From NCBI RefSeq assembly GCF_000018105.1, contig NC_009927.1, forward strand, positions 60,001-92,000: 32,000 nucleotides of DNA, read 5' to 3'. Every line of letters starts with the position of its first letter. The stretch's first letter is position 1. A program made the translations under genes and the position numbers. The notes under the pieces are model-generated. The model was not told the origin of the DNA, ran no database searches, and was given only the letters and a program-made list of their open reading frames with translations. The DNA is from Acaryochloris marina MBIC11017 (lineage in GTDB: Bacteria; Cyanobacteriota; Cyanobacteriia; Thermosynechococcales; Thermosynechococcaceae). This document shows positions 9,284-27,187 of the stretch, one piece after another.

Positions 9284-9647
9284 ATGGCAACCAGCACCCC
9301 TCCACCTATCTATCCTGATGAAGCACTTGGGGCTAGCGGCCTTCTTGGCATCTGGCAGTTGCTCAAGTTTTCTCGAAAACCGATTGAATTTTCGGTCAAA
9401 TCTGCACAAGAATATGGAGACGCGGCAAGAATTAGCATTGGTTCGATTCACGTCTATATTTTTCATCATCCTGACCTGATTTCCGAAGTCCTCAGCAAAA
9501 AAAACGAACACTTTATTAAGGACATTAGCTATCGTTCTCTAGCAGGATTCCTTGGTAATGGACTTCTACTTATTGATGGAGAACATTGGCAGAAACATCG
9601 ACGCCTCATGCAACCTGCTTTCACTCAAGATAAGGTATCTACCTATA
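9284..9647 (+). pseudogene. cytochrome P450, N-terminal part (interrupted by an IS)
   Basis: The ORF reads ...HPDLISEVLSKKNEHFIKD...LIDGEHWQKHRRLMQPAFTQDKVSTY and then runs into the IS inverted repeat. Confidence 0.85.
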
Positions 9648-10581
9648 GAACTCATTTGAGATCTTTTGCCTAATACGCGAAACTGCTAGAAGCGTTCTAT
9701 TTCAATTGTTATGGCCTACTCAAGCAGTCTGACTGATGCCGAATGGGAAATCCTCAAACCACTGTTACCAGAATTTCTACCCCCCAAGAAAAAGACAAGG
9801 CCTCTGATCTGGAGTTACAGAGAGCTGATTGATGGGATGCTTTATCGACTCAAAAATGGGTGCAACTGGGAGGACCTGCCCAAAGACTTTCCCCCCTCCT
9901 CAACGGTCTTTTGGCACTACAACGTGTGGCGCAAAGCAGGCTCGATTGAGACATTGATGACGCTGCTGCATGGACAGGTTCGTGAGCAGGTAAAAAAAAG
10001 TCCAAATGGACAACGTTGATAATGGCAGACTCGCAAGCGGTGAAGAACACTTGCAATGCGAGGGTGGAGTCGAAAGGGTTCTGTTTCTACAAAGCCACCA
10101 ATGGAATCAAGCGCCATCTAGCTGTTGATACCCTTGGCTTTCCATTCTTTACCCTTTGCACCCCCGCAAATGTCTCAGACGATATGGGCTTACTGATGAT
10201 GTTGACCCTCAATATTGAGTACTTCAAAGCCAAGCCGGTCAATATCCCTAAAATCACTTTTTTGTTGGACAACGGCTATCACGTGGACACCTTGACTCAG
10301 AAGCTTGGGGCAATCTATCCAGCCATCATGAGAAAGATCAGATTTGAGCTATCGCCGAAACCCTCAAAAGCAGAAAAAGCGGCTCAAGGGAAAACGGGCT
10401 TTGTTCCGGTTGCAACCCGGTGGGTCATTGAGCGTTCCAACGCTTGGATGGAGCGCTGTAAGAGCCTGACTAAGAACTTTGAACGAACGCTTGTGAATGC
10501 AAAAGCGCAAATGGATTTGTGCTTCGTCAGGCTTATGCTGAAGAGACTTGCGGCTAATTCTTAAAGATCTCAAATGGGTTC
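9648..10581 (+). mobile_element. IS5-family insertion sequence (IS427/IS1031-like), 934 bp
   Basis: 19-bp terminal inverted repeats GAACTCATTTGAGATCTTT (9648-9666) and AAAGATCTCAAATGGGTTC (10563-10581), matching at 18/19. A TATA direct repeat flanks both ends (9644-9647 and 10582-10585). The element has a two-ORF transposase. Confidence 0.9.
9711..10564 (+). CDS. IS5-family transposase, two ORFs joined by a -1 frameshift in an A8 run
   Basis: OrfA (9711..10019) has the LTDAEWEILKPLLP HTH-type N-terminus. OrfB (10016..10564) carries the DDE-domain region (ADSQAVKN...KRHLAVDTLG...RWVIERSNAWM). The A8 tract at 9992-9999 lets the -1 frame read ..QVKKKSKWTTLIMADSQ... Confidence 0.85.
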
Positions 10582-10585
10582 TATA

Positions 10586-11577
10586 TTGCAACGGCTATAG
10601 AAGAGACTAACAAAATGCTCGGCACTTGGAAGACTGGAGAAATCCATGATATCCATCAAGATATGAGCCAGCTTACTGTGAAGGTGATTACCAAAGTACT
10701 CTTTGGCGTTGATATCACACAAATGGCCTTAGAGATTGGGGATGCTCTAGAATCAATCTTGCTTCAGTACTATCACAAGGCACAGACTAGCTTCTTGCTA
10801 CCATCTTGGGTGCCTACACCGGGCAATCTTAGAGCTAATCGGGCTATAGAATACCTTAATAAGCTGGTCATCGACATCATTGAACAGCGTCGAGAATCTC
10901 CACAAGATGATTTGTTATCTAGTCTGCTCTTAGCTCAGGATGAAGATGGCAGTCAGCTTTCTATGAAAGAGCTGCGTGATGAGGTGATGACACTCTTACT
11001 CGCAGGGCATGAAACCACTGCCACGGCACTGACTTGGACATTAATGTTGTTGGCTCAAAATCCAGAGGTTGCACAAAAGCTAGCCTCAGAAACTCAATCG
11101 GTCCTGGAGGGAAGGGCACCAGGCATCACAGACCTACCGCGCTTGCCATACACAGAGATGGTTCTCAAAGAGTCGATGCGTCTGTATCCACCAGCTTGGG
11201 CATTGAGTCGAGAAGTAGCCCAAGATTGTATGATTGGCCCTTATTTCCTGAAAAGAGGAACATCTGTTTTTTTTAGTCAATGGGTTGTTCATCGAGATAC
11301 CCGGTTTTTTGACAATCCAGAACAGTTTTTACCAGAGCGGTGGCAGGATAATCTAGAGCTAAATCTGCCACGCTGTGCATATTTCCCCTTTGGAGCAGGA
11401 CCCAGGGGGTGCATTGGCCAAGCTTTTTCCATAATGGAGGCGACGCTAATACTGGCGATGATTTTAAAGCAAAATTACTTCAAGCTTGTCCCGGACCAGG
11501 CTATTGAGCTGTTACCGTCAATAACATTGCGTCCAAAATATGGAATTAAGATGATTTTGGAGTCTTCCAACCTCTAA
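10586..11577 (+). pseudogene. cytochrome P450, C-terminal part
   Basis: Contains the I-helix LLLAGHETTA, EXXR (ESMR) and the heme-binding loop FPFGAGPRGCIGQAF. Joining 9647 to 10586 restores one 1356-nt frame (..QDKVSTYIATAIEETNKMLGTW..). Confidence 0.9.
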
Positions 11578-13307: not shown

Positions 13308-13484
13308 AATGAAAAACCTCATCCCTCTCATTATTTGTGAACCATCGGATTGATATTGCCATTATTGGGGCAGGTCCCCAGGCGCTCACCCTCTTTACTC
13401 AGCAATTGGAGGACACCATTGACTAACTCAACTGCAAGCGTTCAAACATCCCAATCCCTCGACATCAAGCTGCCCAAAAAAGGC

Positions 13485-14522
13485 ATGCCCGTTACGATCA
13501 TTACGGGGTTTCTAGGAAGTGGCAAAACCACACTCCTCAACCATATTCTCAATACCAGCCAAGACCTGAAGGTCGCCGTACTGGTCAATGAGTTTGGCGA
13601 TATTGATATTGACAGTCAGCTGTTGACCACCATTGATCAAGATATGGTCCAGCTAACCAATGGCTGCATCTGCTGCACGATCAATGATGACCTGGTGGAG
13701 GCGGTCTATTCCGTCCTAGAGCGAGAGGAAAAAATTGATCATATGGTCATCGAAACCACGGGGGTGGCAGATCCGCTACCGATTATTCTCACCTTCGTTG
13801 GTTCTCAACTGAGAGACTTAACGACTTTAGATTCCGTTATTACCTTGGTGGATTCAGAAACCTTTACCCCGGAATGTTTTCAGAGTGAGGCGGCCCTGAA
13901 TCAAATTACCTTTGGCGATATTGTCGTTCTCAACAAAACCGACCTAGCCGCTGATCAAAAGGTGGAAGAACTAGAGCAGTGGATTCGTGAGCAAAAATGG
14001 GGTGCGAGGCTGTTGCGATCTCAACAGGGCCAAGTCCCTCTACCCCTGATTCTGGATACTACCCTCTTTGATCCCAAAGCATATGAAGAGGAAGTCAAAG
14101 CCTTTGCGGAGCAGGGGACTCATCATGATGAACATGACCATCACCATCATGATGAACATGACCACCACCACGGCGAACATGACCATCATCACCATGGCGA
14201 TCACGATCATCACCATCATCATTCTGAGCACCTCACCATAGATGGATTTTCGTCAATGGCCTTTGAAAGCGATCGGCCCTTTGTTCTAGAAAAAATGCAG
14301 GCTTTCATTACCGATCAGCTACCAGAAGATGTCTTTCGAGCTAAGGGTTTTATGTGGTTTGAGAAAAATACATCCCGCTATATTTTTCAGCTCAGTGGCA
14401 AGCGCTATACGATGGACAGCGATCAGTGGCCTGATACCCCAAAAAATCAGCTGGTCTTTATTGGCCGCAATATTGACACAGCTCAGCTAAAACAACTGCT
14501 AACGGATTGCTTGGCCCCCTAA
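13485..14522 (+). CDS. COG0523 (CobW/ZigA/YeiR-type) metallochaperone GTPase with a His-rich insert
   Basis: Walker A GFLGSGKTT, metal motif GCICC, ETTGVADP and NKTDL. The His-rich segment is HHDEHDHHHHDEHDHHHGEHDHHHHGDHDHHHHHSEH. The start is uncertain: ATG 13485 (MPVTIITG), or TTG at 13419 or 13350. Confidence 0.9.
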   Translation: MPVTIITGFLGSGKTTLLNHILNTSQDLKVAVLVNEFGDIDIDSQLLTTIDQDMVQLTNGCICCTINDDLVEAVYSVLEREEKIDHMVIETTGVADPLPIILTFVGSQLRDLTTLDSVITLVDSETFTPECFQSEAALNQITFGDIVVLNKTDLAADQKVEELEQWIREQKWGARLLRSQQGQVPLPLILDTTLFDPKAYEEEVKAFAEQGTHHDEHDHHHHDEHDHHHGEHDHHHHGDHDHHHHHSEHLTIDGFSSMAFESDRPFVLEKMQAFITDQLPEDVFRAKGFMWFEKNTSRYIFQLSGKRYTMDSDQWPDTPKNQLVFIGRNIDTAQLKQLLTDCLAP

Positions 14523-15492: not shown

Positions 15493-17346
15493 TCAGGCAG
15501 CAAAGGTAAAGTCATCGGCATTGAGAGACGTTGTGCCCATCAGTCGAGCAATAGTTGTTCCACCGATCCCAATTTCGGTATCGTCTCCAGTGACTGTTAG
15601 GGCAAGACCGTCAAATTTTAGATCTCCTTGCCCAGAGATACCAATTATGTCAAGGCCCTGCTCAAAGTCAACGATGGTGTTGGTGCCCTCCGGCAATTCA
15701 CCGTTAACAATCCAGAAGGCATCAGAGCCAGCACCTCCAGACAGCTTGTTGTCTCCGCCAATTTCTGTGAAGAAGCTATCGTCTCCGTCTCCACCAAGAG
15801 CGCGGCCATTGCTTCCCAGGAAGAACTGATCATGTCCTGCCCCACCGGAGAGTCTGTATCTTGAAGCTTCAGTTGCCTCAAATATGTCGTCTCCAGCACC
15901 ACCAAAGGCTCTATCGCGGTCTGCCACAAACGTAATGTCATCACCACTGCCGAGGCTGATGCGATTATCGCCAGCTGTGCTTCCAGCGATCGCTGTATCA
16001 ACGTCGTCATTTCCTGCCCCAGCAAAAACCATGTCACTAACACCATCAAAGCCAGGTGTAATAGATGCAAACAGATCATCGGCTTCGCTACTGCCTGCCA
16101 CAATATTGGAGTCTGTAGGAATTAGTTCCGTATCCGGTAGCGGGACTGTTTCATTTTGGGGAGAAATCAAAGCATAAGTCCCTGCAATATCGCTTGGAGC
16201 TTGGATGAAGGTCAGATCGGGATCTTCAAGTTGGGCAATGACATCGCCGGATAGTGTTGAGATTTGTAAGAGTGTGAAGGTTTCTCCGCCAAATTCCACT
16301 TCAATATTCTCGAATTGGTAATTTTCAATTGACTTTGCCATGATGAGTTGATCTTCTTTCGGATCAAAATCGCCTATTAAGGCATAATCTTGATCACCTT
16401 GCCCGACATAAAAATCAGTTCCATCATTTCCTAGCAAAATGCGGTTAACACCAAAGGCACCATGGAAGTGGTCATAGTCACCACTTCCAGTTGTTGCAGT
16501 GGTGATCACTTGGGTGGAAGGATCATAGGAAGTGATCGGCATTCCTGCGATGACCGCATTTCCCAAGGCATAGAAGAAAGAGTCACGACCCACTACACCA
16601 TTGAAAAACGTGAGTCGCTCTTCGTTAATTCCTGCCGCGAGAAAATGATCCCAGCCAGAATTATAGTCACCTGCATCCAGCAAAGCTTCTACATCAGGAT
16701 TGGCTGCCAGATATGCTGTTTCATTGAAATAGGGTTTACTACGGCTCGCATAGAAAGAATTTTCAGGTGCAAACAGTAGAATTCCGTTACTGGTAAATAA
16801 GCCATCTGGAATGAGCTGGGGAACATCTTCGATAATGCCTATCAGATCTCCATTTCTAGAGATATGGACACTGTTGTCGATGGTCTCAAAATCGTAGTCT
16901 TCAGGATTGCCAGCCAGATAAATAGCATCCTCACTGAAGGGGTCAAAAAAGCGAATTAAGGCGTAGTCGCGATCGCCTTCTCCCAAATAAAAATCTTGCG
17001 GGTTCTCTTCTGCATTATCCCCCAGGTAAAAAATGTTGCGTCCCGGTGAACCTAGTAGCGTGTCAAACTCCCCCACACCAAATGACTCAACTTGAGCATT
17101 GACCAATCTTCTTCCTGATTTAATGGATTGTACAGGCACCCCAAATATCGAGGATGTTTGTCCAGAGCTATGGATAATGTCGTCACCTGTCGTGCCGTTG
17201 AAAATTACACCATTACGCTGTTGAAATTGTCCAATCTGCACGTATTCTTCTAGTCCAGAAGCATATAGACCTTGGGCTACTGCTTCAGCAACTTGTGGGT
17301 TTTGATCTAGATAGATTGCCTCATTTAAAAAAGAATTGCTTGTCAT
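15493..17346 (-). CDS. RTX-type (hemolysin-type Ca-binding repeat) secreted protein with a duplicated N-terminal domain
   Basis: C-terminal GGxGxD nonapeptides (GAGNDDV, GSGDDIT, GGAGDDIF, GGAGHDQF, GGDGDDSF, GGAGSDAF). No signal peptide. There are two ~190-aa internal repeats (FLNEAIYLDQNPQVAEAV... and YFNETAYLAANPDVEALL...; ..GEGDRDYALIRFFDP.. and ..GQGDQDYALIGDFDP..). Confidence 0.9.
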   Translation of the reverse strand: MTSNSFLNEAIYLDQNPQVAEAVAQGLYASGLEEYVQIGQFQQRNGVIFNGTTGDDIIHSSGQTSSIFGVPVQSIKSGRRLVNAQVESFGVGEFDTLLGSPGRNIFYLGDNAEENPQDFYLGEGDRDYALIRFFDPFSEDAIYLAGNPEDYDFETIDNSVHISRNGDLIGIIEDVPQLIPDGLFTSNGILLFAPENSFYASRSKPYFNETAYLAANPDVEALLDAGDYNSGWDHFLAAGINEERLTFFNGVVGRDSFFYALGNAVIAGMPITSYDPSTQVITTATTGSGDYDHFHGAFGVNRILLGNDGTDFYVGQGDQDYALIGDFDPKEDQLIMAKSIENYQFENIEVEFGGETFTLLQISTLSGDVIAQLEDPDLTFIQAPSDIAGTYALISPQNETVPLPDTELIPTDSNIVAGSSEADDLFASITPGFDGVSDMVFAGAGNDDVDTAIAGSTAGDNRISLGSGDDITFVADRDRAFGGAGDDIFEATEASRYRLSGGAGHDQFFLGSNGRALGGDGDDSFFTEIGGDNKLSGGAGSDAFWIVNGELPEGTNTIVDFEQGLDIIGISGQGDLKFDGLALTVTGDDTEIGIGGTTIARLMGTTSLNADDFTFAA

Positions 17347-19367: not shown

Positions 19368-19538
19368 CTAAATTTATTTATTTCAGCAAGACCTAAATAT
19401 GCCTGTAGGTGTTGAGACCCGCAAACTTAGTTCCAATTATTCAGTTATTGCCGGGCAGAACCTCCCCCAGGGCAGAGCCACAGACTGAGCACAAACTATT
19501 GTTCATGTTCCGCCAGTTAGATGGTGATCAGGTAGTCA

Positions 19539-19943
19539 TCATGGTTTCTTTGTGGCAGCAATGGCCAGTTTCGCACCTTCAATTTCGCGAATGCGATCCA
19601 TCACCGTCACGACGCGGCCATGACTCACTTGGTCATCTGCATGAATCACCACCACTACCTTGTCAGCTGAATCAGTTAGCTCCTTCACTTCTGCCTCAAG
19701 GACGTTGAGCTGAATGGGTTCTCGATTGAGAGCTAAATCCCCCTGCGCATCAATCGTGACCGTCACCTTGGTCGATAGCTGTGGTTTTACTGTCTTTGCC
19801 TGGGGCAAATTAACAGGTAAGGCATCACTGCGGTTGAGGAATAACGTGGCAATGATAAAAAAGGACAGAATTGCAAAAATAACATCAATCATCGGCACAA
19901 TATTGATTTGAGCCGATGGACTGGGATCATCGGGTAAGCGCAT
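19539..19943 (-). CDS. exbD: ExbD/TolR family biopolymer transport protein
   Basis: 134 aa; the INIVPMIDVIFAILSFFII signature transmembrane segment is present. It overlaps the upstream exbB by 17 nt. Confidence 0.9.
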   Translation of the reverse strand: MRLPDDPSPSAQINIVPMIDVIFAILSFFIIATLFLNRSDALPVNLPQAKTVKPQLSTKVTVTIDAQGDLALNREPIQLNVLEAEVKELTDSADKVVVVIHADDQVSHGRVVTVMDRIREIEGAKLAIAATKKP

Positions 19944-20580
19944 GATTCACCCTGCCTCTTTCATAGCGGTGACGATAAAGCAACTCCAACTGCCCCCCAT
20001 GCTCTTGAATAAAGGCCAACTGGCGCTGATATAAACTGCGAAACATATTGGCAAAAATCAGGGTTGAAATGGCGACAATCAATCCCGCAGCCGTTGAAAT
20101 TAGGGCGGTACTTATTCCCCCGGTGACTTCTGCTGATTCACTACCGCCGATATTGCCTACATCTAGGGAGGAGAAGGAGTTGATCAGGCCCAATACCGTC
20201 CCTAATAGGCCGAGTAAAGGGGAAATACTAATGATGGTGTCAAACACCGTCGTAAATCGTTTCAATGTCGGCAATTCAGCTTGAGCTTCACTTTCTAATG
20301 CCAATCGGAATTCTTCCGGTGTCGGGTCTTCTAAGGACAAGGCAGCTAAGAATATCCGGGCAATCGGAAATCTTGCTTGCTCTTGGAGATACCTCAAGGC
20401 GTCATAGACATTATCTTGGCGATAAAGCTGCAGTGCCTGTTTGACGATCCGCAACTGGTTGCGATTCACCCTCGTCCAAAAGATGAGGCGTTCAAAAATC
20501 AGTGCGATCGCAATTAACGAAAAAACCATGAGCGGGAGCATCACCACTCCTCCCGCAATAATCACTTGGCCAAACTGCAT
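19927..20580 (-). CDS. exbB: MotA/TolQ/ExbB proton-channel protein
   Basis: 217 aa with three transmembrane segments. The conserved ..ISPLLGLLGTVLGLI..F........GGISTALISTAAGLIVA.. region is present. Confidence 0.9.
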   Translation of the reverse strand: MQFGQVIIAGGVVMLPLMVFSLIAIALIFERLIFWTRVNRNQLRIVKQALQLYRQDNVYDALRYLQEQARFPIARIFLAALSLEDPTPEEFRLALESEAQAELPTLKRFTTVFDTIISISPLLGLLGTVLGLINSFSSLDVGNIGGSESAEVTGGISTALISTAAGLIVAISTLIFANMFRSLYQRQLAFIQEHGGQLELLYRHRYERGRVNHALTR

Positions 20581-20795
20581 TTTGTTGATACCCCTCCATT
20601 CATTACAGCGACAAGAGAAGACCGATTACTCTGACCGTAACCACAGCAAACGGCATTAGTTCTGAGAGCATAAAACTGCGAATAAATACACCAAGAGGCA
20701 CTGATACAGCAACCACCCTTGCTGCACGCTGAGCCTATAAAGCGATGTCGAGATTTCGGCATAATCGGCCATATATGAGACATTAAATCCATAAC

Positions 20796-21878
20796 TTAAT
20801 ACAAGGATTGCTGCCGCTTTAACATCAGCCAAATCAGGATGGGGGCACCCAGCACAGCCATCACTGCATTGAGGGGTAGAACGGACTGACTCCCTGGAAG
20901 TTGAGAGATCGCATCGGCAATCAAAGCTAAGATGGCACCGAGCAGAGCCACAGCTGGGACTAGGATGCGATGATCGACGGTTCGAAATAAACTCCGGCAC
21001 AGATGCGGGACAGCGACTCCCACAAATGCAATAGGTCCACAAAAGGCCGTAACCGATCCTGATAATAAGGAAGAACTGAAGATCAAAAGGCATCGGGTTC
21101 GATTGACAGACAGCCCTATACTTTGAGCTTGCGCTTCCCCCAGTAACAGCAAATTTAAAGCTTTATGCAACAGTTGTGATCCCCCAAGTCCTAAGGCAAT
21201 GACAGGCAACAACAAGGGCATCTGTTGCCAAGTCACATTCGAAAAACTACCAAAGGTCCAGTTGAGGTATGCCTGGGTCTGAGTAAGCAAACTGAAATGC
21301 AAAAGGATAGTCACTAGAGCAGTGGTCATATACCCAAACATGAGGCCAAAAATAAGCAGTGCTAAAGCACTACGCACCCGTTGAGCCACTAGTAGCACCA
21401 CCCCCATGGACATCCCTGCGCCCAAACTGGCCGCCCCAATAATGCTGATCTGAACAAAACCATTGCCAGCGTTAGCTGTCCCTCTAGTTAAAACCACGAG
21501 AGCGGCCCCCAAACTAGCGCCAGCATTAATGCCTAGCAAGGAAGGCCCTGCAAGTGGATTGCGGAATAATGCCTGTAGCTGTAATCCGCTCGTTGCTAAG
21601 GCAGAACCCGCTGCGATCGCAGTTATCGTTCTAGGCAATCGAAACTGGAGAATAATCTGTTGCCAGGTCGGATTCGTGGCCTGACCTCCGAACAACACAG
21701 TGATCACGTCTGATAGGGGAATCGAGACAGATCCAAAAGCCAGGCTGACTAGCACCCCCATTAACAAGACACTACTTAGAACCCCTAAACCAGCGTAACG
21801 GCTGATTTGCGGCCTTCCATGTAGTGGGTCGGGAAGATGTCTATCGTTCCCATCAGTCATCGCTGAGGACATATCCAT
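20796..21878 (-). CDS. FecCD/BtuC-family ABC transporter permease
   Basis: 360 aa. RLPRTITAIAAGSALATSGLQLQALFRNPLAGPSLLGINAGASLGAAL is the family signature. About 9-10 hydrophobic segments. Confidence 0.93.
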   Translation of the reverse strand: MDMSSAMTDGNDRHLPDPLHGRPQISRYAGLGVLSSVLLMGVLVSLAFGSVSIPLSDVITVLFGGQATNPTWQQIILQFRLPRTITAIAAGSALATSGLQLQALFRNPLAGPSLLGINAGASLGAALVVLTRGTANAGNGFVQISIIGAASLGAGMSMGVVLLVAQRVRSALALLIFGLMFGYMTTALVTILLHFSLLTQTQAYLNWTFGSFSNVTWQQMPLLLPVIALGLGGSQLLHKALNLLLLGEAQAQSIGLSVNRTRCLLIFSSSLLSGSVTAFCGPIAFVGVAVPHLCRSLFRTVDHRILVPAVALLGAILALIADAISQLPGSQSVLPLNAVMAVLGAPILIWLMLKRQQSLY

Positions 21879-21881
21879 TTC

Positions 21882-22661
21882 TCACTGCTGTACATATTCA
21901 ACCCGTTGTACCCAAGTGCGATGAGTGCCATTAGGATCAAGAGATAACAGCCGAAACCCAGGCAGATGAGTATGATCAGTTGGTACAGGTGGATTCACCT
22001 GTAAACAAGTGGAAGGACAACCGTAGAAGTAAATCGGTGAGGGACGTTGGCTGAAAACATGCTGATACTGGAAGTCCAAGTGGATATGTCCAAACAGCAC
22101 CACTTTCACTTGTGGGAAGCTCTCCAACAGGGTGAGCAATGCATCAGCATTTTGCACCTGCATTTGATCCAGCCAGTCGATACCGATTGCCACAGGATGA
22201 TGGTGTAGGGCAATCACCGTAGGTTTATGAGGATGTTGAGTCAAGACTGATTGCAACTGTTGCAAGGCGCTGACTGATAAATACCCTTCACCAAACTGAG
22301 CAGAAGGCAACACTGAGTTGAGTGAAATAAGCAGCCAGCTCCCCAGATGAATTGCCTGTGGCCCATAGAGTTGAGGAGACTGCAGTTCCCGATGCATGGC
22401 CTCAACTTGATCATGGTTACCAGGCAGCCAGTAAGCTGGCATCTTCAAGGGTAAGATTGCTCTCATTAAATGCTGATAAGCAACGACACTCCCTTGATCG
22501 GCTAAATCCCCCGTTAAGAGAATTCCATCCAGTTGATCTCGATTCACTTGCTGCAGAACAGCCTGTAAGGATTGCCAAGGATTAGTCCCTCGTAGCAGTG
22601 CCGTTGTATCTGCCAACAGATGGGTATCACTGATTTGTGCAAGCGTAATGGGGGCCGTCAT
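21882..22661 (-). CDS. metallophosphoesterase (CpdA/Icc-like class III phosphodiesterase fold)
   Basis: Motifs DTHL, GDLADQG, GNHD, HHHP and GHIH occur in the canonical order. Its ATG overlaps the stop of the binding-protein gene (ATGA), and its stop is 3 nt from the permease ATG. Confidence 0.88.
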   Translation of the reverse strand: MTAPITLAQISDTHLLADTTALLRGTNPWQSLQAVLQQVNRDQLDGILLTGDLADQGSVVAYQHLMRAILPLKMPAYWLPGNHDQVEAMHRELQSPQLYGPQAIHLGSWLLISLNSVLPSAQFGEGYLSVSALQQLQSVLTQHPHKPTVIALHHHPVAIGIDWLDQMQVQNADALLTLLESFPQVKVVLFGHIHLDFQYQHVFSQRPSPIYFYGCPSTCLQVNPPVPTDHTHLPGFRLLSLDPNGTHRTWVQRVEYVQQ

Positions 22662-23920
22662 GAGTCTAATTTTTGGTAATAAATCAGTTGATGATTAGGC
22701 AATAACTCTGGGTGGAAAATCTTGATCAAGTCTGCTAGTACCTTATGGGGGTTTACAACCCCGCTTTCCCAATAATCGTTGCCGCCAGCAGCATTGACCC
22801 GAGCCGTATTATTGAAGACGCGATCAGCTTGGACTGCAGACAGTTGACCGTAGCGAGCATCGGTTGAGATCGCATCTTGTCTCGATCTCCAATCTTGGCT
22901 GACATTAACCCAGAACTCAGCCTTCACTGCTCGATTAAACACTGCTTCAAAGTCCAGGGGTAGACTCCCTCTTGCATCTGACTCTGACCAGAGATAGTTG
23001 GCACCTGCATCCTGCAAGAGCTGGGACACATAACTTTTGCCTCCCGGCATATACCAGGTGCCATTGTGACTAAACCCCGTAAACACCGTGGGACGTTGGG
23101 CCACAGATTGAGCCAACTGCACCATCGATTGATACTCTTGGGCTATATCGGAAAAGACCTGTTCTGCCTGCGCTTCTTGATTAAAAAATAGGGCCGTATA
23201 CTTTAACCACTCTGCTTGTCCCAGGGGGGATTCCTCCATATATTCCCCCACCAGGGCAACGGGTAGACCTGCCTTGACCAGACGAGGATGACTATCTGTG
23301 TCTGGGTTACCCGTTCCATAGGTCATCACCAAATCCGGTGCTGTCACCAGCAGCCGCTCCACATCTAAGGTATTGCCAGAATTAAACTCAACCAGTTCAC
23401 CCCGATCAATTTTGGCCCGCACCTTTAGACTATTCACTTGCTTAAACTGGCTGACACCGACAAGGGTATCTAGCTGACCTAACAGTTCCAAGTGAGGTAA
23501 ATAGGTCGTGGATAGCACGACTAGACTGCTAATCGGTACTTCCACCATCGGCAGATCTTCAAAGCCTGGGGGTTTGGGTGTTCCACACTGCACTAGCAGA
23601 TACTGAAAGGTTTGGTTTGCCCCTTTCCAGGGATTCTGAACGGTAACTATTTTGTAGTGACGGTGATACTCTACCGAGAAACCCACGGCATAGTCAGACT
23701 GGACCTTATTGGGGAAATAATCTTGAGTAGGATCGTACGCAACAGGACATTGATCGGCAGAAGTTGGTGAAGAATCAGATTTCAGGGCTGATGGTGATTG
23801 GGTTGGCTGGCAACCAACTCCCCCTAGGAATCCAACGACAGCCAATCCCGCCGTTACTTTCAGCAGTCGAATCCAGCCAGAAGTAGCGTAGTCACTGATG
23901 GATGCTTTGGGTTCCTTCAT
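22658..23920 (-). CDS. ABC transporter periplasmic substrate-binding protein (siderophore/heme/B12 class)
   Basis: The region ..VVLSTTYLPHLELLGQLDTLVGVS......VERLLVTAPDLVMTYG... is typical of FhuD/BtuF-class binding proteins. The start is set at MKEPKAS (23920), giving a signal peptide ending GGVGC and avoiding a 92-nt overlap with the upstream gene. Confidence 0.88.
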   Translation of the reverse strand: MKEPKASISDYATSGWIRLLKVTAGLAVVGFLGGVGCQPTQSPSALKSDSSPTSADQCPVAYDPTQDYFPNKVQSDYAVGFSVEYHRHYKIVTVQNPWKGANQTFQYLLVQCGTPKPPGFEDLPMVEVPISSLVVLSTTYLPHLELLGQLDTLVGVSQFKQVNSLKVRAKIDRGELVEFNSGNTLDVERLLVTAPDLVMTYGTGNPDTDSHPRLVKAGLPVALVGEYMEESPLGQAEWLKYTALFFNQEAQAEQVFSDIAQEYQSMVQLAQSVAQRPTVFTGFSHNGTWYMPGGKSYVSQLLQDAGANYLWSESDARGSLPLDFEAVFNRAVKAEFWVNVSQDWRSRQDAISTDARYGQLSAVQADRVFNNTARVNAAGGNDYWESGVVNPHKVLADLIKIFHPELLPNHQLIYYQKLDS

Positions 23921-23936
23921 CCTGTCGTCGCTAGGG

Positions 23937-24824
23937 CTATACAGAGGCTTGAGTTTTGATCGGGGGATAGACATGGGCTTGAATAGGGCGGCCTTGAGCG
24001 ACATGCTCCTGAACAATTCGGTGGGCAATCTCAGGAGTCACGCGGGTATACCAAGTGCGATCCCCGGAATAAAACACCACTGGCCCAGCAGCACAAACTT
24101 CTAAACAGCCAGAGGTTCTCACGGCAACCTCCAAACCTGACTGCTGTACAGCCGTTTGTAATGCCTCAATAATGGGCTGCACATCCTGAGAGGGATAGCA
24201 GCGGCTGGATCGACAGACTGACAGATAGGGTCGCTTGAGTGGATTCTCAGTATAGGGAATGGGACGAGTTCCCAATACATAAATATCGCGCAACGTTTCA
24301 TAGAGGCTCAGTTTATCCAGTTGGGGTGTCCCTTCCGGTAGCAAGTTCTCGTCGGCATCCACAAAGGGATTGGGTAAAAAGAGATTCATCATCTTTTCTC
24401 CAGCTCCATTCCAGAACTGAATCCCCCAACTTCGTGCTTGGCCGCGATCATTGAAGCGGCGGTAAAACGAGGCTCGCTGTACCTGTCGTTTTCGTCTCAA
24501 CGCTGGAGGGGTTTTGCCGAGGGGACCACCCTGATGTTCTTCTAGGCATAGATGCAAATGCCATCCTGCCGTCACAACCGTCAGATAGCCATCGTACAAA
24601 ATACAAGTTTTAGGGGCTTGGGTAAATTCCAGCTCAAGAACGCTCCCCTCTACTACGTGACCAATCTGGGTTTGTTGCCAGCACTCTTGAAACAGGGTGT
24701 AAAGCAGAGGCCCCAGGACCTCAATGGTGCAAGGAAAATCTTCATACTCGATCTGTCCTCCAGTCGCTAAGGGGTCAACGGTACGGTAGTTTAAAGGGAC
24801 GACTTGACGTGAAAATTCAGACAT
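23937..24824 (-). CDS. two-domain protein: ChuX/HutX-like N-terminal domain fused to a thioredoxin-like [2Fe-2S] ferredoxin domain
   Basis: C-terminal ~90 aa: YLSVCRSSRC...GCLEVCAAGPVVFYSGDRTWYTRVTPEIAHRIVQEHV, the CxxxxC...CxxxC pattern of thioredoxin-like 2Fe-2S ferredoxins. N-terminal ~190 aa: SVLELEFTQAPK..DGYLTVVTAGWHLHLCLEE...SWGIQFWNGAGEKMMNLFLP resembles E. coli ChuX as I recall it (VILEFSGELP..GYFNL..GHIKAE...SILFFNKEGSAMLKIFLG). The N-terminal assignment needs a profile search. Confidence 0.85.
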   Translation of the reverse strand: MSEFSRQVVPLNYRTVDPLATGGQIEYEDFPCTIEVLGPLLYTLFQECWQQTQIGHVVEGSVLELEFTQAPKTCILYDGYLTVVTAGWHLHLCLEEHQGGPLGKTPPALRRKRQVQRASFYRRFNDRGQARSWGIQFWNGAGEKMMNLFLPNPFVDADENLLPEGTPQLDKLSLYETLRDIYVLGTRPIPYTENPLKRPYLSVCRSSRCYPSQDVQPIIEALQTAVQQSGLEVAVRTSGCLEVCAAGPVVFYSGDRTWYTRVTPEIAHRIVQEHVAQGRPIQAHVYPPIKTQASV

Positions 24825-24848
24825 CTTAGTTAAGTCCTACAATAAGTC

Positions 24849-26915
24849 CTAAAAAGTGGCACTCACACCCAGGCGAAAACTCCGACCCACTGCCGGAAAA
24901 CCTGGAAATTGTTCATAATGCTGATCTAACAAATTGTCTAAACTGCCCGTGAAGGCAAAGCTATCCCCAATCGGGAAACGAAGCTTGAGATCGAGCGTGG
25001 TATAGCCCGGCAAGGATTCTGTATTCGTGTTGTTGACAAAGTAGGAACTGAGATAGCGGACAATGGCGGCGATATAGACACCTTTTGCATTCTCATAGGC
25101 CAAACCAACATTGAGGCTATCCGCGCCGCGAAAGCTGAGTTCATTACCTGTAATCGTAGGGTCGCCATCCTCAATAATTTCAGGCTCATTCAAGGTGTAG
25201 TTGGCAAAGGCATACAGGTTTTTGAGCAGTCGCACATTCAAATCCGCCTCTAAACCCAGCGTCCGCACCTTGCCGATATTTTCATAGGTACTAGGGGCAC
25301 CAAACTGAAAGTTAATCAAGTTAGAGATGGTATTGGCAAAGAAGGTGAGGCGTAACAAGCCATTCTCCCCCAGGGATTGGTCAATGCCAATATCAAAACT
25401 ATCGCCCCGTTCTGGCTCTAAATCAGGGTTACCCACCACATTAAAGGCAGCTAAGCCTTCTAGGTTGACGATTTGAGGTGCTCGAAAACTCCTGGCATAA
25501 TTCGCCCGTAAAACCGTGGAATCTCCTATGGCAAGACGAGCCCCCACACTAGGAGAGGTAAAGGAACCATTAGCTAAACTATTGAAATCTTGGCGCAAAC
25601 CAAAATTGAGATTGAATTTTGGCGTAATGTTGACGTCATAACGGGCAAACAAGGCCCCTTGATCAATGCCGCCATCATAGTTAACATCTGTGGTTCCCAG
25701 ACCATAGCTAAAAGTGGTGTTCCGAGACTGGGTATTGCGGTAGTCAAATCCATAGGTCAGGGTTTGGTTTTTGGCGACTTTCCAGTTGTGCTGGACTTGT
25801 GCCCCAATAGAGCGGCGATCAACATCATCTCGTGTGCCAAAGGCTGCAGGGTCTGGATTATCAAAGTTGGAGTCCAGCAGATCCGCAAAAATCCGGCTGG
25901 TGAGTTGGGAGTTGCCCGCCTGGTCCAGTTGGGCTTGCCAAGTCAGATCTAGGAAGAGTTCTTCCGTGGTTTGCCGGGCTAAAGGGGTCAGGCTATTAAA
26001 TTGGCCAATACTGTCGGGAATTGGCACACCCCCAGCCGAGCCAAAATCTTTGTTCAGATAGAGGGCGCTGAAGGTTACCTGGTTGCGATCGCTGAGTTTT
26101 CCTTCCAGCTTCAGATTCAGATTGTTGTACAACACGTCGGCGTTGTTCCGATCTGCTTGCAATCCAATCCGGTTAATCTCAAACGGAAAGTCATTCGTCG
26201 CCTGGGTGCGGGTATAGCCAACGCTCCACCCCAAATCCCCACTGCGCCCCCGAGCCTGCACGGCTTGCTCATTGAGCCCAAAACTTCCAGCCGCAGCTCT
26301 GAGGGTCACCTCCGGTTTTTCGTCAGCAGGAGCACGAGTAATGATATTAATCACGCCCCCTAAGGCATCGGAGCCATAGAGGGTCGATCCTCCACCTGGC
26401 AAGAGTTCAATCCGCTCTATATTGTCCGTCGTGAAATTCGATAGATCAAATCCACCCATAAACCCCACGTCATTAATGGGGCGACCATCTAGCAAAATCA
26501 AAACTTGAGCTGTGTTACTCCCCCGAATAAACTGGCTACTCAGAGCTCCTAGTTGTCCCCCAGCTGTGCCGTCCCTCAGAATTCCTGGGAGATATTTCAA
26601 CGCTTCTTGGACCGTTCTCGCGCCTTGGGCCTCAATTTGCTCGCGATTAATCACATACACCGGGCGAGACGAATCACGCACCGTGCCTTCTCGCCGAAAG
26701 GGGGCATAAACGGGCTGATCTAAGATTTCTCCCGTGACTGTAATTTCTACTTCTTCGTCCTCCACTATCGAAGAAGGTAGGGCCTCCTCATCGGTAGGGG
26801 GATTCGCTTGTGCCAGGCTAGCTCTTGAAGTGTAGCTAAACCAGGCAGTTAAACTGAGTCCAAAAACGAATATGAGCTTCCCAATGACAGGAAACCCAAC
26901 TTTTACACCTTTCAT
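24849..26915 (-). CDS. TonB-dependent outer-membrane receptor (BtuB-like by context)
   Basis: 688 aa with a signal peptide and a TonB-box-like EITVTG. Plug-domain motifs are present (IRGSNTAQVLILLDGRPIND, LYGSDALGGVINIITR), and the beta-barrel ends in the terminal F (..LGVSATF). A cobalamin riboswitch precedes it. Confidence 0.95.
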   Translation of the reverse strand: MKGVKVGFPVIGKLIFVFGLSLTAWFSYTSRASLAQANPPTDEEALPSSIVEDEEVEITVTGEILDQPVYAPFRREGTVRDSSRPVYVINREQIEAQGARTVQEALKYLPGILRDGTAGGQLGALSSQFIRGSNTAQVLILLDGRPINDVGFMGGFDLSNFTTDNIERIELLPGGGSTLYGSDALGGVINIITRAPADEKPEVTLRAAAGSFGLNEQAVQARGRSGDLGWSVGYTRTQATNDFPFEINRIGLQADRNNADVLYNNLNLKLEGKLSDRNQVTFSALYLNKDFGSAGGVPIPDSIGQFNSLTPLARQTTEELFLDLTWQAQLDQAGNSQLTSRIFADLLDSNFDNPDPAAFGTRDDVDRRSIGAQVQHNWKVAKNQTLTYGFDYRNTQSRNTTFSYGLGTTDVNYDGGIDQGALFARYDVNITPKFNLNFGLRQDFNSLANGSFTSPSVGARLAIGDSTVLRANYARSFRAPQIVNLEGLAAFNVVGNPDLEPERGDSFDIGIDQSLGENGLLRLTFFANTISNLINFQFGAPSTYENIGKVRTLGLEADLNVRLLKNLYAFANYTLNEPEIIEDGDPTITGNELSFRGADSLNVGLAYENAKGVYIAAIVRYLSSYFVNNTNTESLPGYTTLDLKLRFPIGDSFAFTGSLDNLLDQHYEQFPGFPAVGRSFRLGVSATF

Positions 26916-26944
26916 CCATACCTCGCAGATGTTGTAAGTGAGTA

Positions 26945-27065
26945 ATAACTCGGCGGGCGTTCTGACTCTGAGGACAAAGCCTCATCACAGTTGCGGGACA
27001 GCGCCGGATTTTCACCGGACTTTCCCCGTTTCCTCTAACGGCTGTTCTCCGTTAGAACCGAATCT
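26945..27065 (-). promoter_or_regulatory. cobalamin (B12) riboswitch
   Basis: The minus strand reads GGAAACGGGGAAAGTCCGGTGAAAATCCGGCGCTGTCCCGCAACTGTGATGAGG...CAGAGTCAGAACGCCCGCCGAG. This carries the conserved GGGAA..GGTGAAAATCC..GCTGTCCCGCAACTGT core and a B12-box-like AGTCAGAAcGCCcGCC. It ends about 30 nt before the receptor ATG. Confidence 0.85.
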
Positions 27066-27187
27066 ATAAAATTGTTTCTGCACCTTATCACAGGAATGAG
27101 ATGCATTAGAGAGAAGCGGAAGGCACATAGGAATTTGCCAATATCTTGGAATAGATTGAACCGCTTGAATAAGTTTTTATACTGAGA

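What the first reader, a model, noticed from the sequence alone, without database searches (positions are those of the whole stretch)
21882..22661. Metallophosphoesterase translationally coupled inside the transporter genes: candidate cobamide phosphodiesterase/phosphatase
All five calcineurin-like phosphoesterase motifs are intact (DTHL, GDLADQG, GNHD, HHHP, GHIH). The gene overlaps the binding-protein stop (ATGA) and ends 3 nt before the permease ATG, so it is embedded in the operon and is not a passenger.

Cobamides contain a phosphodiester in the nucleotide loop. The known remodelling enzymes are the amidohydrolase CbiZ and the phosphodiesterase CbiR, which has a different fold. The last biosynthetic step needs a phosphatase (CobC). 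A CpdA-like enzyme here could therefore be a non-orthologous remodelling or dephosphorylating activity. That would matter for cyanobacteria, which handle pseudocobalamin as opposed to cobalamin.
Basis: inference. Interest (0 to 1): 0.72.

Follow-up and report, generated by a model that had tools for sequence, protein, structure and literature searches.

The report
Phosphodiesterase gene inside cyanobacterial B12-uptake operon
An intact metal-dependent phosphodiesterase gene sits inside the vitamin-B12-controlled uptake operon of Acaryochloris marina and belongs to a dedicated enzyme lineage found in such operons across cyanobacteria; the gene arrangement was already reported in Synechococcus PCC 7002 as 'cpdA', but what the enzyme does to B12 is still unknown and can be tested directly.

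Summary
Window 22661..21882 (-) encodes a 259-aa calcineurin-like metallophosphoesterase (MPE) with all five motifs. Its ATG overlaps the binding-protein stop (ATGA) and it ends 3 nt (9 nt by PGAP) before the permease start. It lies in a cobalamin-riboswitch operon: BtuB, DUF7676-ferredoxin, BtuF, MPE, BtuC, ExbB, ExbD. The window is 100% identical to A. marina plasmid pREC1.

The gene is not a stray. Cyanobacterial homologues split into two clades (100/100 bootstrap).
- A housekeeping clade passes NCBI's CpdA threshold and has no btu neighbours or riboswitch (0 of 13 loci scanned).
- A btu-linked clade fails that threshold. It had a cobalamin riboswitch in all 20 operons whose BtuB or riboswitch-led 5' end was on the contig; 7 other clade loci had upstream sequence but no riboswitch.

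The BtuF-stop/MPE-start overlap recurs in 18 of 23 loci.

The arrangement is already published as btuB-cpdA-btuF-btuC in Synechococcus PCC 7002, so this is a new member of a known kind. The enzyme's function is unknown in everything I could read.

A role in cleaving the nucleotide-loop phosphodiester of imported corrinoids is the best-fitting hypothesis (about 0.35), but it rests on context only. A CobC-like role is disfavoured. No cob genes are adjacent. MPE-type operons almost always lack btuD.

The parts
26935..27077 (-). Cobalamin riboswitch aptamer (RF00174) heading the operon
   Evidence: Rfam cmscan 58.3 bits (gathering score 31.5), E=3.4e-12, full-length model match. Equivalent riboswitches are found in 20 related operons.
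24849..26915 (-). BtuB-like TonB-dependent outer-membrane receptor
   Evidence: Pfam Plug plus TonB_dep_Rec_b-barrel. The best NCBIfam hit is TIGR01779 TonB-B12 at 210.7 bits, below its cutoff of 599.7. PGAP names it a TonB-dependent receptor.
23937..24824 (-). DUF7676 domain fused to a thioredoxin-like [2Fe-2S] ferredoxin; probably a cytoplasmic corrinoid-binding and redox protein
   Evidence: Pfam DUF7676 E=2e-67. AF2 pLDDT 90. Foldseek: the C-terminal domain matches Aquifex 2Fe-2S ferredoxin 1m2a; the N-terminal domain matches the haem-trafficking proteins ChuX, HutX, ChuS, PhuS and HemS (E about 1e-4 for the best, ChuX). Four invariant Cys and an invariant WHxHLC motif.
22658..24028 (-). 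BtuF-like periplasmic substrate-binding protein. The longest ORF is given; PGAP starts it at 23974. A hydrophobic stretch ends in the lipobox-like sequence GVGC.
   Evidence: Pfam Peripla_BP_2 E=1e-28. Weak NCBIfam BtuF hit. 2345 homologues, including the btuF of the experimentally studied Anabaena/Nostocales btu operon type (PMC10878165). Its stop codon overlaps the MPE start.
21882..22661 (-). The finding: a 259-aa binuclear metallophosphoesterase with the CpdA/GpdQ/Rv0805 fold, btu-linked paralogue clade ('cpdA' of the cyanobacterial btu operon); WP_012167001.1
   Evidence: Pfam Metallophos 1e-18. NCBIfam CpdA NF008359 scores 182.4, below the cutoff of 225. PDB sequence hits GpdQ 5.5e-16 and Rv0805 2e-15. 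AF2 pLDDT 96. Foldseek GpdQ 3d03 TM 0.80 and Rv0805 3ib7 TM 0.79. Clade split 100/100. Exact match to the A. marina protein.
20796..21878 (-). BtuC-like FecCD-family ABC permease (PGAP start 21872)
   Evidence: Pfam FecCD 1.6e-76. The best NCBIfam hit is BtuC NF003001 at 200 bits, below its cutoff of 334.
19927..20580 (-). ExbB proton-channel subunit, 216 nt downstream of BtuC on the same strand
   Evidence: Pfam MotA_ExbB 1.9e-34. ExbB-ExbD also follow BtuC in L001 and L024.
19539..19943 (-). ExbD, overlapping the end of ExbB
   Evidence: Pfam ExbD 7e-29.

Best explanation
Shown, with about 0.9 confidence: this is an intact, cytoplasmic, two-metal phosphodiesterase of the CpdA/GpdQ/Rv0805 structural family. 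It belongs to a separate cyanobacterial paralogue lineage and is not the housekeeping cAMP phosphodiesterase. That lineage is built into cobalamin-riboswitch-controlled B12 uptake operons. It is made only when B12 is scarce, together with the outer-membrane receptor, the periplasmic binding protein and the permease. It is the same kind of gene as 'cpdA' in the published btuB-cpdA-btuF-btuC operon of Synechococcus PCC 7002.

Inferred, and this is what the confidence figure refers to: the enzyme acts in the cytoplasm on the cargo that the transporter brings in. It would hydrolyse the single phosphodiester of a corrinoid nucleotide loop (aminopropanol-O-P-O-3'-ribose), or of a related incomplete corrinoid such as a GDP-cobinamide-type species. 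Foreign or unusable cobamides would thereby be converted to cobinamide(-phosphate), which can be rebuilt with the organism's own lower ligand. This would be an activity analogous to CbiR carried out by an unrelated fold. The neighbouring DUF7676-ferredoxin protein, a ChuX/PhuS-like tetrapyrrole binder fused to a 2Fe-2S domain, would be a second cytoplasmic cargo-handling component.
For: Identity and fold.

Dedicated paralogue:
- The NJ tree separates 27 btu-linked sequences from 54 housekeeping sequences, with 100/100 bootstrap support.
- Housekeeping sequences score 244-254 bits on NCBIfam CpdA (cutoff 225; 5 of 5 pass). btu-clade sequences score 167-204 bits (6 of 6 fail).
- One Acaryochloris MAG carries both types (L001 and L037).
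- Clade-specific changes lie next to the metal ligands: GDLA(D/E)xG against GDLSQDE, HHHP against HHPP, and a 2-residue G-E insertion that aligns to GpdQ S127-K128.

Corrinoid link:
- A cobalamin riboswitch is present in 20 of 20 MPE-type operons whose BtuB or riboswitch-led 5' end is on the contig, and in 0 of 13 housekeeping loci.
- BtuB, BtuF or BtuC lie beside the MPE in about 30 of 33 clade loci.
- The 4-nt BtuF-stop/MPE-start overlap is seen in 18 of 23 loci.
- The clade reaches Gloeobacterales (L014).

Chemistry, by inference:
- The nucleotide-loop phosphodiester is the only phosphoester in the transported molecule (structure described in PMC7733943).
- The closest solved structure, GpdQ, is a glycerophosphodiesterase acting on alkyl phosphodiesters.
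- CbiR shows that loop hydrolysis is a real remodelling route (PMC7733943).
- The B12-auxotrophic close relative of PCC 7002, PCC 11901, keeps CobS (PMC7205611).
- A second cytoplasmic tetrapyrrole-handling protein is encoded in the same operon.
Against: - There is no biochemical or genetic evidence for any substrate. I could not read the PCC 7002 paper, so the phenotype of a cpdA mutant is unknown to me.
- No cobS, cobU, cobT, cbiZ or cbiR gene is adjacent in any of the roughly 33 loci. In contrast, the CbiR homologues used to define that clade were chosen for lying next to cob genes (PMC7733943).
- PCC 7002 is a cobalamin auxotroph that grows on cobalamin, so cleaving the imported cofactor looks counter-productive unless the enzyme is selective.
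- The Nostocales btu operons import B12 without this gene (PMC10878165, PMC13603067).
- Seven clade loci have upstream sequence but no riboswitch at the gathering score (L010, L011, L014, L019, L021, L022, L028).
- The best profile match of the protein is still cAMP phosphodiesterase.
Confidence: 0.35

Rival explanations
1. It is a B12-status-controlled cyclic-nucleotide phosphodiesterase. In this reading it is a second cAMP/cGMP or 2',3'-cNMP phosphodiesterase whose expression is tied by the riboswitch to B12 limitation, so that cyclic-nucleotide signalling falls when B12 is scarce. It would not touch the corrinoid.
For: The best family match is CpdA (NF008359, E=1e-53). All class III phosphodiesterase motifs and metal ligands are kept. 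The clade is sister to the cyanobacterial clade that passes the CpdA cutoff. Rv0805 is among the top structural matches.
Against: It fails the CpdA equivalog cutoff in 6 of 6 clade members, while a separate paralogue that passes the cutoff was found in the Acaryochloris MAG that carries both types (L001 and L037). There are clade-specific substitutions and an insertion beside the active site. Conserved translational coupling to a periplasmic binding-protein gene and a long-standing operon position are hard to explain for a signalling enzyme.
Confidence: 0.2
2. It hydrolyses another phosphoester linked to corrinoid handling and not the nucleotide loop. Candidates are the inorganic triphosphate released by ATP:corrinoid adenosyltransferase, GDP-cobinamide, or cobinamide phosphate. 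This would pull forward the activation of the freshly imported cofactor.
For: The same context evidence applies as for the best explanation. From general knowledge, the metallophosphoesterase superfamily includes pyrophosphatases and polyphosphatases.
Against: No adenosyltransferase or cobU gene is adjacent. The idea is purely speculative, and the nearest structural relatives are diesterases.
Confidence: 0.15
3. It is a non-orthologous CobC: a phosphatase that removes the 5'-phosphate from cobamide-5'-phosphate or alpha-ribazole-phosphate in the last step of nucleotide-loop assembly.
For: From my own knowledge, CobC is known to have non-orthologous replacements (for example archaeal CobZ). The corrinoid context is shown. 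The B12-auxotrophic PCC 11901, a close relative of PCC 7002, retains CobS (PMC7205611).
Against: The gene lies in uptake operons and not in biosynthesis operons. It is absent from the Nostocales btu operons sampled here and in PMC13603067, although AFA strains, which are Nostocales, contain pseudo-B12 as their main corrinoid (PMC13603067). The closest relatives are diesterases. No cobS or cobU gene is adjacent.
Confidence: 0.1
4. It is an accessory partner of the transporter itself. In this reading the protein docks on BtuC, or regulates it, in operons that have no btuD gene.
For: MPE-type operons have an adjacent ABC ATPase in only 1 of 16 cases (L020), against 27 of 38 operons scored as without an MPE (two btu-clade loci, L024 and L034, fell into that class because of a score cutoff). 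Fisher p about 1e-5, not corrected for phylogeny. There is no ABC ATPase anywhere in the 32-kb window. btuD is reported as not found in PCC 7002 (PMC13603067). The spacing to btuC is tight here and in several other loci.
Against: A metallophosphoesterase powering or replacing an ABC nucleotide-binding domain has no precedent. The pattern can equally be lineage history plus a shared ATPase encoded elsewhere, as suggested in PMC13603067. The MPE-BtuC spacing varies from -11 to +700 nt. In L012 and L015 the MPE sits with BtuB and DUF7676 but without BtuF or BtuC.
Confidence: 0.05
5. It is a passenger gene with no role in B12 biology.
For: None beyond the absence of functional data.
Against: A dedicated clade, a riboswitch in 20 of 20 operons with the BtuB or riboswitch-led 5' end on the contig, a conserved overlap with BtuF, and a spread from Gloeobacterales to Acaryochloris.
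Confidence: 0.03

Closest known systems
[quoted passage not shown] PCC 7002 (Perez, Rodionov & Bryant 2016, J Bacteriol 198:2753; cited in PMC8123684, PMC12967095, PMC13603067)
   Same: A CpdA-like phosphodiesterase gene lies inside a cobalamin-riboswitch-regulated btu operon that lacks btuD and is induced by B12 limitation. Loci L023 and L034 in my sample have exactly the published gene order BtuB-MPE-BtuF-BtuC and fall in the same clade as the window gene.
   Different: The gene order here is BtuB-DUF7676-BtuF-MPE-BtuC-ExbBD, and the operon is on a conjugative megaplasmid. I could not obtain the PCC 7002 sequence or read the paper, so direct orthology and any mutant phenotype are unverified.
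Class III cyclic-nucleotide phosphodiesterases: E. coli CpdA/Icc, M. tuberculosis Rv0805
   Same: Same fold and the same metal-binding motifs. Rv0805 gives sequence E=2e-15 and TM 0.79. CpdA is the best NCBIfam profile.
   Different: The score is below the CpdA equivalog cutoff (182 against 225), whereas the housekeeping cyanobacterial paralogue passes it. There are clade-specific active-site-proximal changes. The genomic context is B12 uptake.
GpdQ glycerophosphodiesterase of Enterobacter aerogenes (PDB 3d03, 2dxl, 2zo9)
   Same: It is the best solved-structure match by sequence (5.5e-16) and by fold (TM 0.80). It hydrolyses alkyl phosphodiesters, the class of bond found in the cobamide loop.
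   Different: Only 22-23% identity. GpdQ belongs to a glycerol-phosphate uptake context. Its oligomeric state and cap region were not compared.
CbiR cobamide phosphodiesterase of Akkermansia muciniphila (PMC7733943)
   Same: It is the proposed functional analogue. It cleaves the nucleotide-loop phosphoribosyl bond to give cobinamide-phosphate plus alpha-ribazole, and it is metal-dependent.
   Different: [quoted passage not shown] CbiR is oxygen-sensitive, and the homologues used to define its clade were chosen for lying beside cob biosynthesis genes. The MPE is encoded beside transport genes in oxygenic phototrophs.
Nostocales/Anabaena btu operon (btuB2-alr4030-btuF-btuC-btuD; PMC10878165, PMC13603067)
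   Same: Orthologous BtuB, DUF7676-ferredoxin, BtuF and BtuC, with an upstream cobalamin riboswitch.
   Different: It carries btuD and has no metallophosphoesterase. It often has DUF1636 upstream.

Membership tests
Calcineurin-like metallophosphoesterase superfamily (Pfam PF00149) | Five conserved motif blocks supplying the ligands of a binuclear metal centre (D-x-H, G-D, G-N-H-D/E, H, G-H-x-H) | tested here: met
   DTHL, GDLADQG, GNHD, HHHP and GHIH are present. The ligand residues are invariant in 33 sequences. Pfam scores 68.9 bits against a cutoff of 21.5.
Calcineurin-like metallophosphoesterase superfamily (Pfam PF00149) | Beta-alpha-beta-alpha-beta sandwich fold | tested here: met
   AF2 pLDDT 96 and pTM 0.93. 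Foldseek finds 107 PDB matches at E<=1e-3, and the 50 listed are metallophosphoesterases or related phosphodiesterases/nucleases.
3',5'-cyclic-AMP phosphodiesterase CpdA (NCBIfam NF008359 equivalog) | Whole-protein score at or above the curated cutoff of 225 bits | tested here: not met
   The window protein scores 182.4 bits. Five other btu-clade members score 167-204. Five housekeeping paralogues score 244-254.
3',5'-cyclic-AMP phosphodiesterase CpdA (NCBIfam NF008359 equivalog) | Hydrolysis of 3',5'-cAMP | not testable with these tools
   This needs an enzyme assay.
Cyanobacterial btu-operon phosphodiesterase ('cpdA' of PCC 7002 type) | Encoded within a cobalamin-riboswitch-controlled operon with btuB, btuF and btuC | tested here: met
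   The same holds for 20 related operons.
Cyanobacterial btu-operon phosphodiesterase ('cpdA' of PCC 7002 type) | Sequence orthology to the PCC 7002 cpdA product | not tested
   The PCC 7002 sequence was not retrievable and the paper is not held. Indirect support: L023 and L034 have the published gene order and fall in the same 100%-supported clade.
CbiR cobamide phosphodiesterase | AP endonuclease 2 superfamily domain (Pfam PF01261; predicted TIM barrel) | tested here: not met
   Only Metallophos domains are found, and the fold is that of a metallophosphoesterase. Any similarity can only be functional.
CbiR cobamide phosphodiesterase | Hydrolysis of the cobamide loop to cobinamide-phosphate plus alpha-riboside | not testable with these tools
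   This needs LC-MS of reaction products.
CobC alpha-ribazole-phosphate / cobamide-5'-phosphate phosphatase | Histidine-phosphatase (phosphoglycerate-mutase-like) fold | tested here: not met
   No such Pfam or NCBIfam hit. The fold is different.
GpdQ-type glycerophosphodiesterase | Close structural similarity to GpdQ | tested here: inconclusive
   It is the top Foldseek hit (TM 0.80, 22% identity), but Rv0805 scores nearly the same. Substrate specificity cannot be read from this.

The most novel reading that the evidence does not exclude
The btu-linked metallophosphoesterase is a third, evolutionarily independent cobamide-remodelling enzyme, after the amidohydrolase CbiZ and the AP-endonuclease-2-family CbiR. 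In this reading it is an oxygen-tolerant CpdA/GpdQ-fold phosphodiesterase that cleaves the nucleotide loop of imported cobamides in cyanobacteria. Working with the ChuX-like DUF7676-ferredoxin protein, it would form a cytoplasmic 'receive and reprocess' module that decides whether cobalamin or pseudocobalamin ends up in the cell.
Probability: 0.3. Interest if true: 0.8.

Novelty: new member of a known kind. Interest (0 to 1): 0.45.

Why it matters
Cyanobacteria are major makers and consumers of B12-type cofactors in the ocean, and they use pseudocobalamin while most algae need cobalamin. How cyanobacteria treat imported corrinoids is not known.

A conserved, riboswitch-controlled phosphodiesterase inside the uptake operon is the obvious candidate for a cargo-processing step. 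It has been named since 2016, but none of the papers I could read assigns it a function.

If it cleaves the nucleotide loop, it would add a new enzyme class to cobamide remodelling. It would also change how B12 exchange between cyanobacteria, bacteria and algae is modelled. If it is only a cAMP phosphodiesterase, it would instead reveal a link between B12 status and cyclic-nucleotide signalling. Either outcome can be reached with one purified protein and one knockout.

Tried and rejected
- Reading the primary PCC 7002 papers failed. The DOI and PMC5019053 and PMC5019059 are not held, so the cpdA mutant phenotype is unknown to me.
- Literature searches for any functional study of this enzyme found only citations of the operon name. 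The searches covered cpdA+cobalamin, metallophosphoesterase+riboswitch, cobamide remodelling+cyanobacteria and DUF7676.
- I looked for cob, cbiZ or cbiR-type genes beside the MPE by clustering all neighbouring ORFs in 27 loci and annotating recurrent or odd ones. None appeared. The recurrent neighbours were transport genes, an ABC ATPase in one operon, a glycogen-debranching enzyme, an APH-family kinase and metE. The remaining window ORFs contain no cob pathway enzyme, only a CobW-family GTPase.
- I tried to establish from papers whether A. marina makes cobamides. This was inconclusive.
- I tried to retrieve the PCC 7002 orthologue by name through cluster look-up. No named member was found.
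- The promoter and terminator consensus scan of the operon gave counts at shuffle level and is uninformative.
It was redone with database homologues.
- The passenger-gene reading is rejected on the conservation data.
- The periplasmic-enzyme reading is rejected because no member of the clade has an N-terminal extension or signal peptide.
Full report
OBSERVATION

The ORF at 22661..21882 on the minus strand encodes 259 aa starting with ATG. The translation carries DTHL, GDLADQG, GNHD, HHHP and GHIH. Pfam Metallophos matches at E=1e-18.

Reading the DNA confirms both junctions:
- The MPE ATG (22661-22659) overlaps the TGA of the upstream binding-protein gene (22660-22658), forming ATGA.
- The MPE TGA (21884-21882) is followed after 3 nt by the first ATG of the permease ORF (21878). 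PGAP prefers the next ATG, which gives a 9-nt gap.

The gene is real. It has 227 homologues at E<=1e-10, and the metal ligands are invariant across 33 aligned sequences.

SURROUNDINGS

All on the minus strand, the operon reads as follows:
1. Cobalamin riboswitch, 27077..26935 (RF00174, 58 bits).
2. BtuB-like TonB-dependent receptor.
3. A DUF7676 protein with a thioredoxin-like 2Fe-2S domain.
4. BtuF-like binding protein.
5. The metallophosphoesterase (MPE).
6. BtuC-like FecCD permease.
7. After a 216-nt gap, ExbB and ExbD.

No ABC ATPase is encoded anywhere in the 32-kb window.

The stretch queried (window 19500-27100, the whole operon) is 100% identical to plasmid pREC1 (393.6 kb, conjugative) of Acaryochloris marina MBIC10699. 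The protein is WP_012167001.1 / ABW31849.1 of A. marina MBIC11017, annotated 'metallophosphoesterase / phosphodiesterase, putative'.

WHAT KIND OF ENZYME

- By sequence, the nearest solved structures are the glycerophosphodiesterase GpdQ (5.5e-16) and the class III phosphodiesterase Rv0805 (2e-15).
- An AlphaFold model built on 33 sequences is confident (pLDDT 96).
- Its best PDB fold matches are GpdQ (TM 0.80) and Rv0805 (TM 0.79).
- The best NCBIfam profile is CpdA, the 3',5'-cAMP phosphodiesterase, but at 182 bits against a curated cutoff of 225.
- The N-terminus runs straight into the first strand in all clade members, so there is no signal peptide and the protein is read as cytoplasmic.

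A DEDICATED PARALOGUE

A scan of one genome per species returned 80 loci. I annotated the neighbours by searching the window's own proteins against six-frame ORFs. This revealed a sharp break:
- Homologues scoring about 200 bits or more lie beside BtuB, BtuF or BtuC.
- Weaker homologues never do.

Three further lines support two separate lineages:
- A neighbour-joining tree separates 27 btu-linked sequences from 54 others, with 100/100 bootstrap support for the split.
- Five of five housekeeping sequences pass the CpdA cutoff (244-254 bits). Six of six btu-clade sequences fail it (167-204 bits).
- One Acaryochloris MAG carries both types (L001 at 94% identity to the window protein; L037 at 42%).

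Clade-specific positions sit next to the metal ligands:
- GDLA(D/E)xG against GDLSQDE.
- HHHP against HHPP.
- The residue after GHIH.
- A two-residue Gly-Glu insertion.

In the HMMER alignment the insertion pairs with GpdQ Ser127-Lys128. From my own recollection, that loop belongs to the second shell of the GpdQ active site. This is a lead and not a test.

LINK TO B12

Rfam scans found a cobalamin riboswitch at the head of the operon in every MPE-type locus whose BtuB or riboswitch-led 5' end is on the contig. These are the window plus L001, L003-L007, L009, L012, L015, L017, L018, L020, L023, L034, L083, L085, L086, L089 and L145, which makes 20 of 20. In L015 the riboswitch precedes metE, 4.5 kb upstream on the same strand.

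Thirteen housekeeping loci, each with up to about 10 kb of flank on each side, had none.

There are honest exceptions:
- Seven clade loci have upstream sequence but no riboswitch at the gathering score (L010, L011, L014, L019, L021, L022, L028).
- Two of those (L010, L019) have no btu neighbour at all.

The 4-nt overlap of the BtuF stop with the MPE start recurs in 18 of 23 loci where BtuF precedes the MPE. The MPE-BtuC spacing is variable (-11 to +700 nt).

The clade spans Gloeobacterales (L014), Leptolyngbya-like, Coleofasciculus, Prochloron, Synechococcus-like and Acaryochloris genomes. The association is therefore old.

ALREADY KNOWN

Three papers cite the riboswitch-regulated btuB-cpdA-btuF-btuC operon of Synechococcus PCC 7002 (Perez, Rodionov & Bryant 2016):
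- It is induced by B12 limitation and is functional for B12 import.
- btuD was not found in that genome.

L023 and L034 have precisely that gene order and fall within the clade. I could not read the primary paper. No held paper assigns a function to cpdA.

BROADER OPERON COMPARISON

A BtuF-centred sample of 83 further loci shows two operon architectures:
- Nostocales type: DUF1636, BtuB, DUF7676, BtuF, BtuC, BtuD, with no MPE. This agrees with PMC10878165 and PMC13603067.
- MPE type: BtuB, (DUF7676), BtuF, MPE, BtuC, with no BtuD.

Among the operons scored by the script, an ABC ATPase follows BtuC in 1 of 16 MPE-type operons (L020) against 27 of 38 scored as lacking an MPE. Fisher p is about 1e-5, uncorrected for phylogeny. 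Two btu-clade loci (L024, L034) fell on the MPE-minus side because of a score cutoff; reclassifying them by hand gives 1 of 18 against 27 of 36. The simplest reading is lineage history plus a shared ATPase encoded elsewhere. A functional link to the transporter cannot be excluded.

THE NEIGHBOURING DUF7676 PROTEIN

- The AlphaFold model is confident (pLDDT 90).
- The C-terminal domain is a thioredoxin-like 2Fe-2S ferredoxin, with four invariant Cys.
- The N-terminal DUF7676 domain resembles the cytoplasmic haem-trafficking proteins ChuX, HutX, ChuS, PhuS and HemS (E about 1e-4 for the best, ChuX; TM to target about 0.5).
- It carries an invariant WHxHLC motif.

This suggests a cytoplasmic corrinoid receiver and reductase. 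It shows that these operons encode cargo-handling proteins as well as transport parts.

MECHANISM

Shown:
- It is an intact binuclear phosphoesterase.
- It is cytoplasmic.
- It is co-transcribed and probably co-translated with the B12 uptake machinery under riboswitch control.
- It is a paralogue distinct from the CpdA-type enzyme.

Inferred:
- Its substrate is the imported corrinoid. The only phosphoester in that molecule is the nucleotide-loop phosphodiester.
- GpdQ-like enzymes cleave alkyl phosphodiesters.
- CbiR proves that loop hydrolysis to cobinamide-phosphate is a workable remodelling route.
- PCC 11901, a B12 auxotroph close to PCC 7002, retains CobS.

Against this reading:
- No cob gene is adjacent.
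- An auxotroph gains nothing from destroying cobalamin unless the enzyme is selective.
- Nostocales import B12 without this gene.

I put loop or corrinoid-phosphodiester hydrolysis at about 0.35. The alternatives are:
- a B12-regulated cyclic-nucleotide phosphodiesterase, about 0.2;
- another corrinoid-linked phosphoester, about 0.15;
- a CobC-like phosphatase, about 0.1;
- a transporter accessory, about 0.05;
- a passenger gene, about 0.03.

VERDICT

The operon arrangement is already published for PCC 7002, so this is a new member of a known kind.

This analysis adds:
- the clade definition;
- the riboswitch and overlap statistics;
- the failure of the CpdA threshold;
- the complementarity with btuD;
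- the ChuX-like neighbour.

Noticed in passing
window 23937-24824 (-): The DUF7676 protein between BtuB and BtuF is a two-domain protein. The N-terminal domain is predicted to fold like the cytoplasmic haem-trafficking proteins ChuX, HutX, ChuS and PhuS and carries an invariant WHxHLC motif. The C-terminal domain is a thioredoxin-like 2Fe-2S ferredoxin. It is present in both MPE-type and Nostocales-type btu operons (alr4030 / 'frdA') and has no literature. It may be a cytoplasmic corrinoid receiver and reductase.
   Followed up: partly
window 19539-27077; loci L001-L034 and L081-L163: btu operons that contain the phosphoesterase almost never contain an ABC ATPase gene (1 of 16 scored), while those scored as lacking it usually do (27 of 38). 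There is no ATPase anywhere in this 32-kb window. The comparison is not corrected for phylogeny.
   Followed up: partly
window 19500-27100 queried; flanks read from the GenBank record: The operon stretch is 100% identical to the 393.6-kb conjugative plasmid pREC1 of Acaryochloris marina MBIC10699, so the B12 uptake operon is plasmid-borne. The BLAST search reported a second matching place in the same plasmid, which I did not examine.
   Followed up: partly
window 13350-14522 (+) and flanking record NZ_AP026076.1 172171-177854: The operon sits in a metal-homeostasis neighbourhood. It includes a CobW/ZigA-family GTPase in the window and, just outside it, ZigA, several Fur-family or other transcriptional repressors, glutaredoxin, GST and a PNPOx-family protein.
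   Followed up: no
window 9284-11577 (+): A cytochrome P450 gene appears to be split by an insertion sequence. P450 fragments flank two transposase ORFs (Pfam p450 and DDE_Tnp_1; the same layout is in the PGAP annotation).
   Followed up: no
window 15493-17346 (-): A 617-aa protein with no Pfam hit has a C-terminal third full of GGxGxD-type repeats (GGAGNDD, GSGDD, GGAGDD, GGAGHD, GGDGDD, GGAGSD). These resemble RTX calcium-binding repeats, so it may be a secreted protein.
   Followed up: no
L001 5096-5238 and 5577-5719: The closest relative locus (an Acaryochloris MAG) has two cobalamin riboswitch copies in tandem. A short BtuB-like fragment lies between them, suggesting a partial duplication of the operon head.
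   Followed up: no
L012 3559-4158; L015 9295-9882: In Coleofasciculus and Floridaenema loci a conserved protein of about 196 aa with no Pfam hit sits where BtuF would be, giving BtuB-DUF7676-unknown-MPE with no BtuF or BtuC nearby. In L015 the only riboswitch precedes metE, which lies upstream on the same strand.
   Followed up: no
L081 4223-4633; L082 3957-4367: Nostocales-type btu operons carry a DUF1636 gene between the riboswitch and btuB. It is absent from the window's operon, and one metagenomic locus (L092) has it downstream of btuD instead.
   Followed up: no
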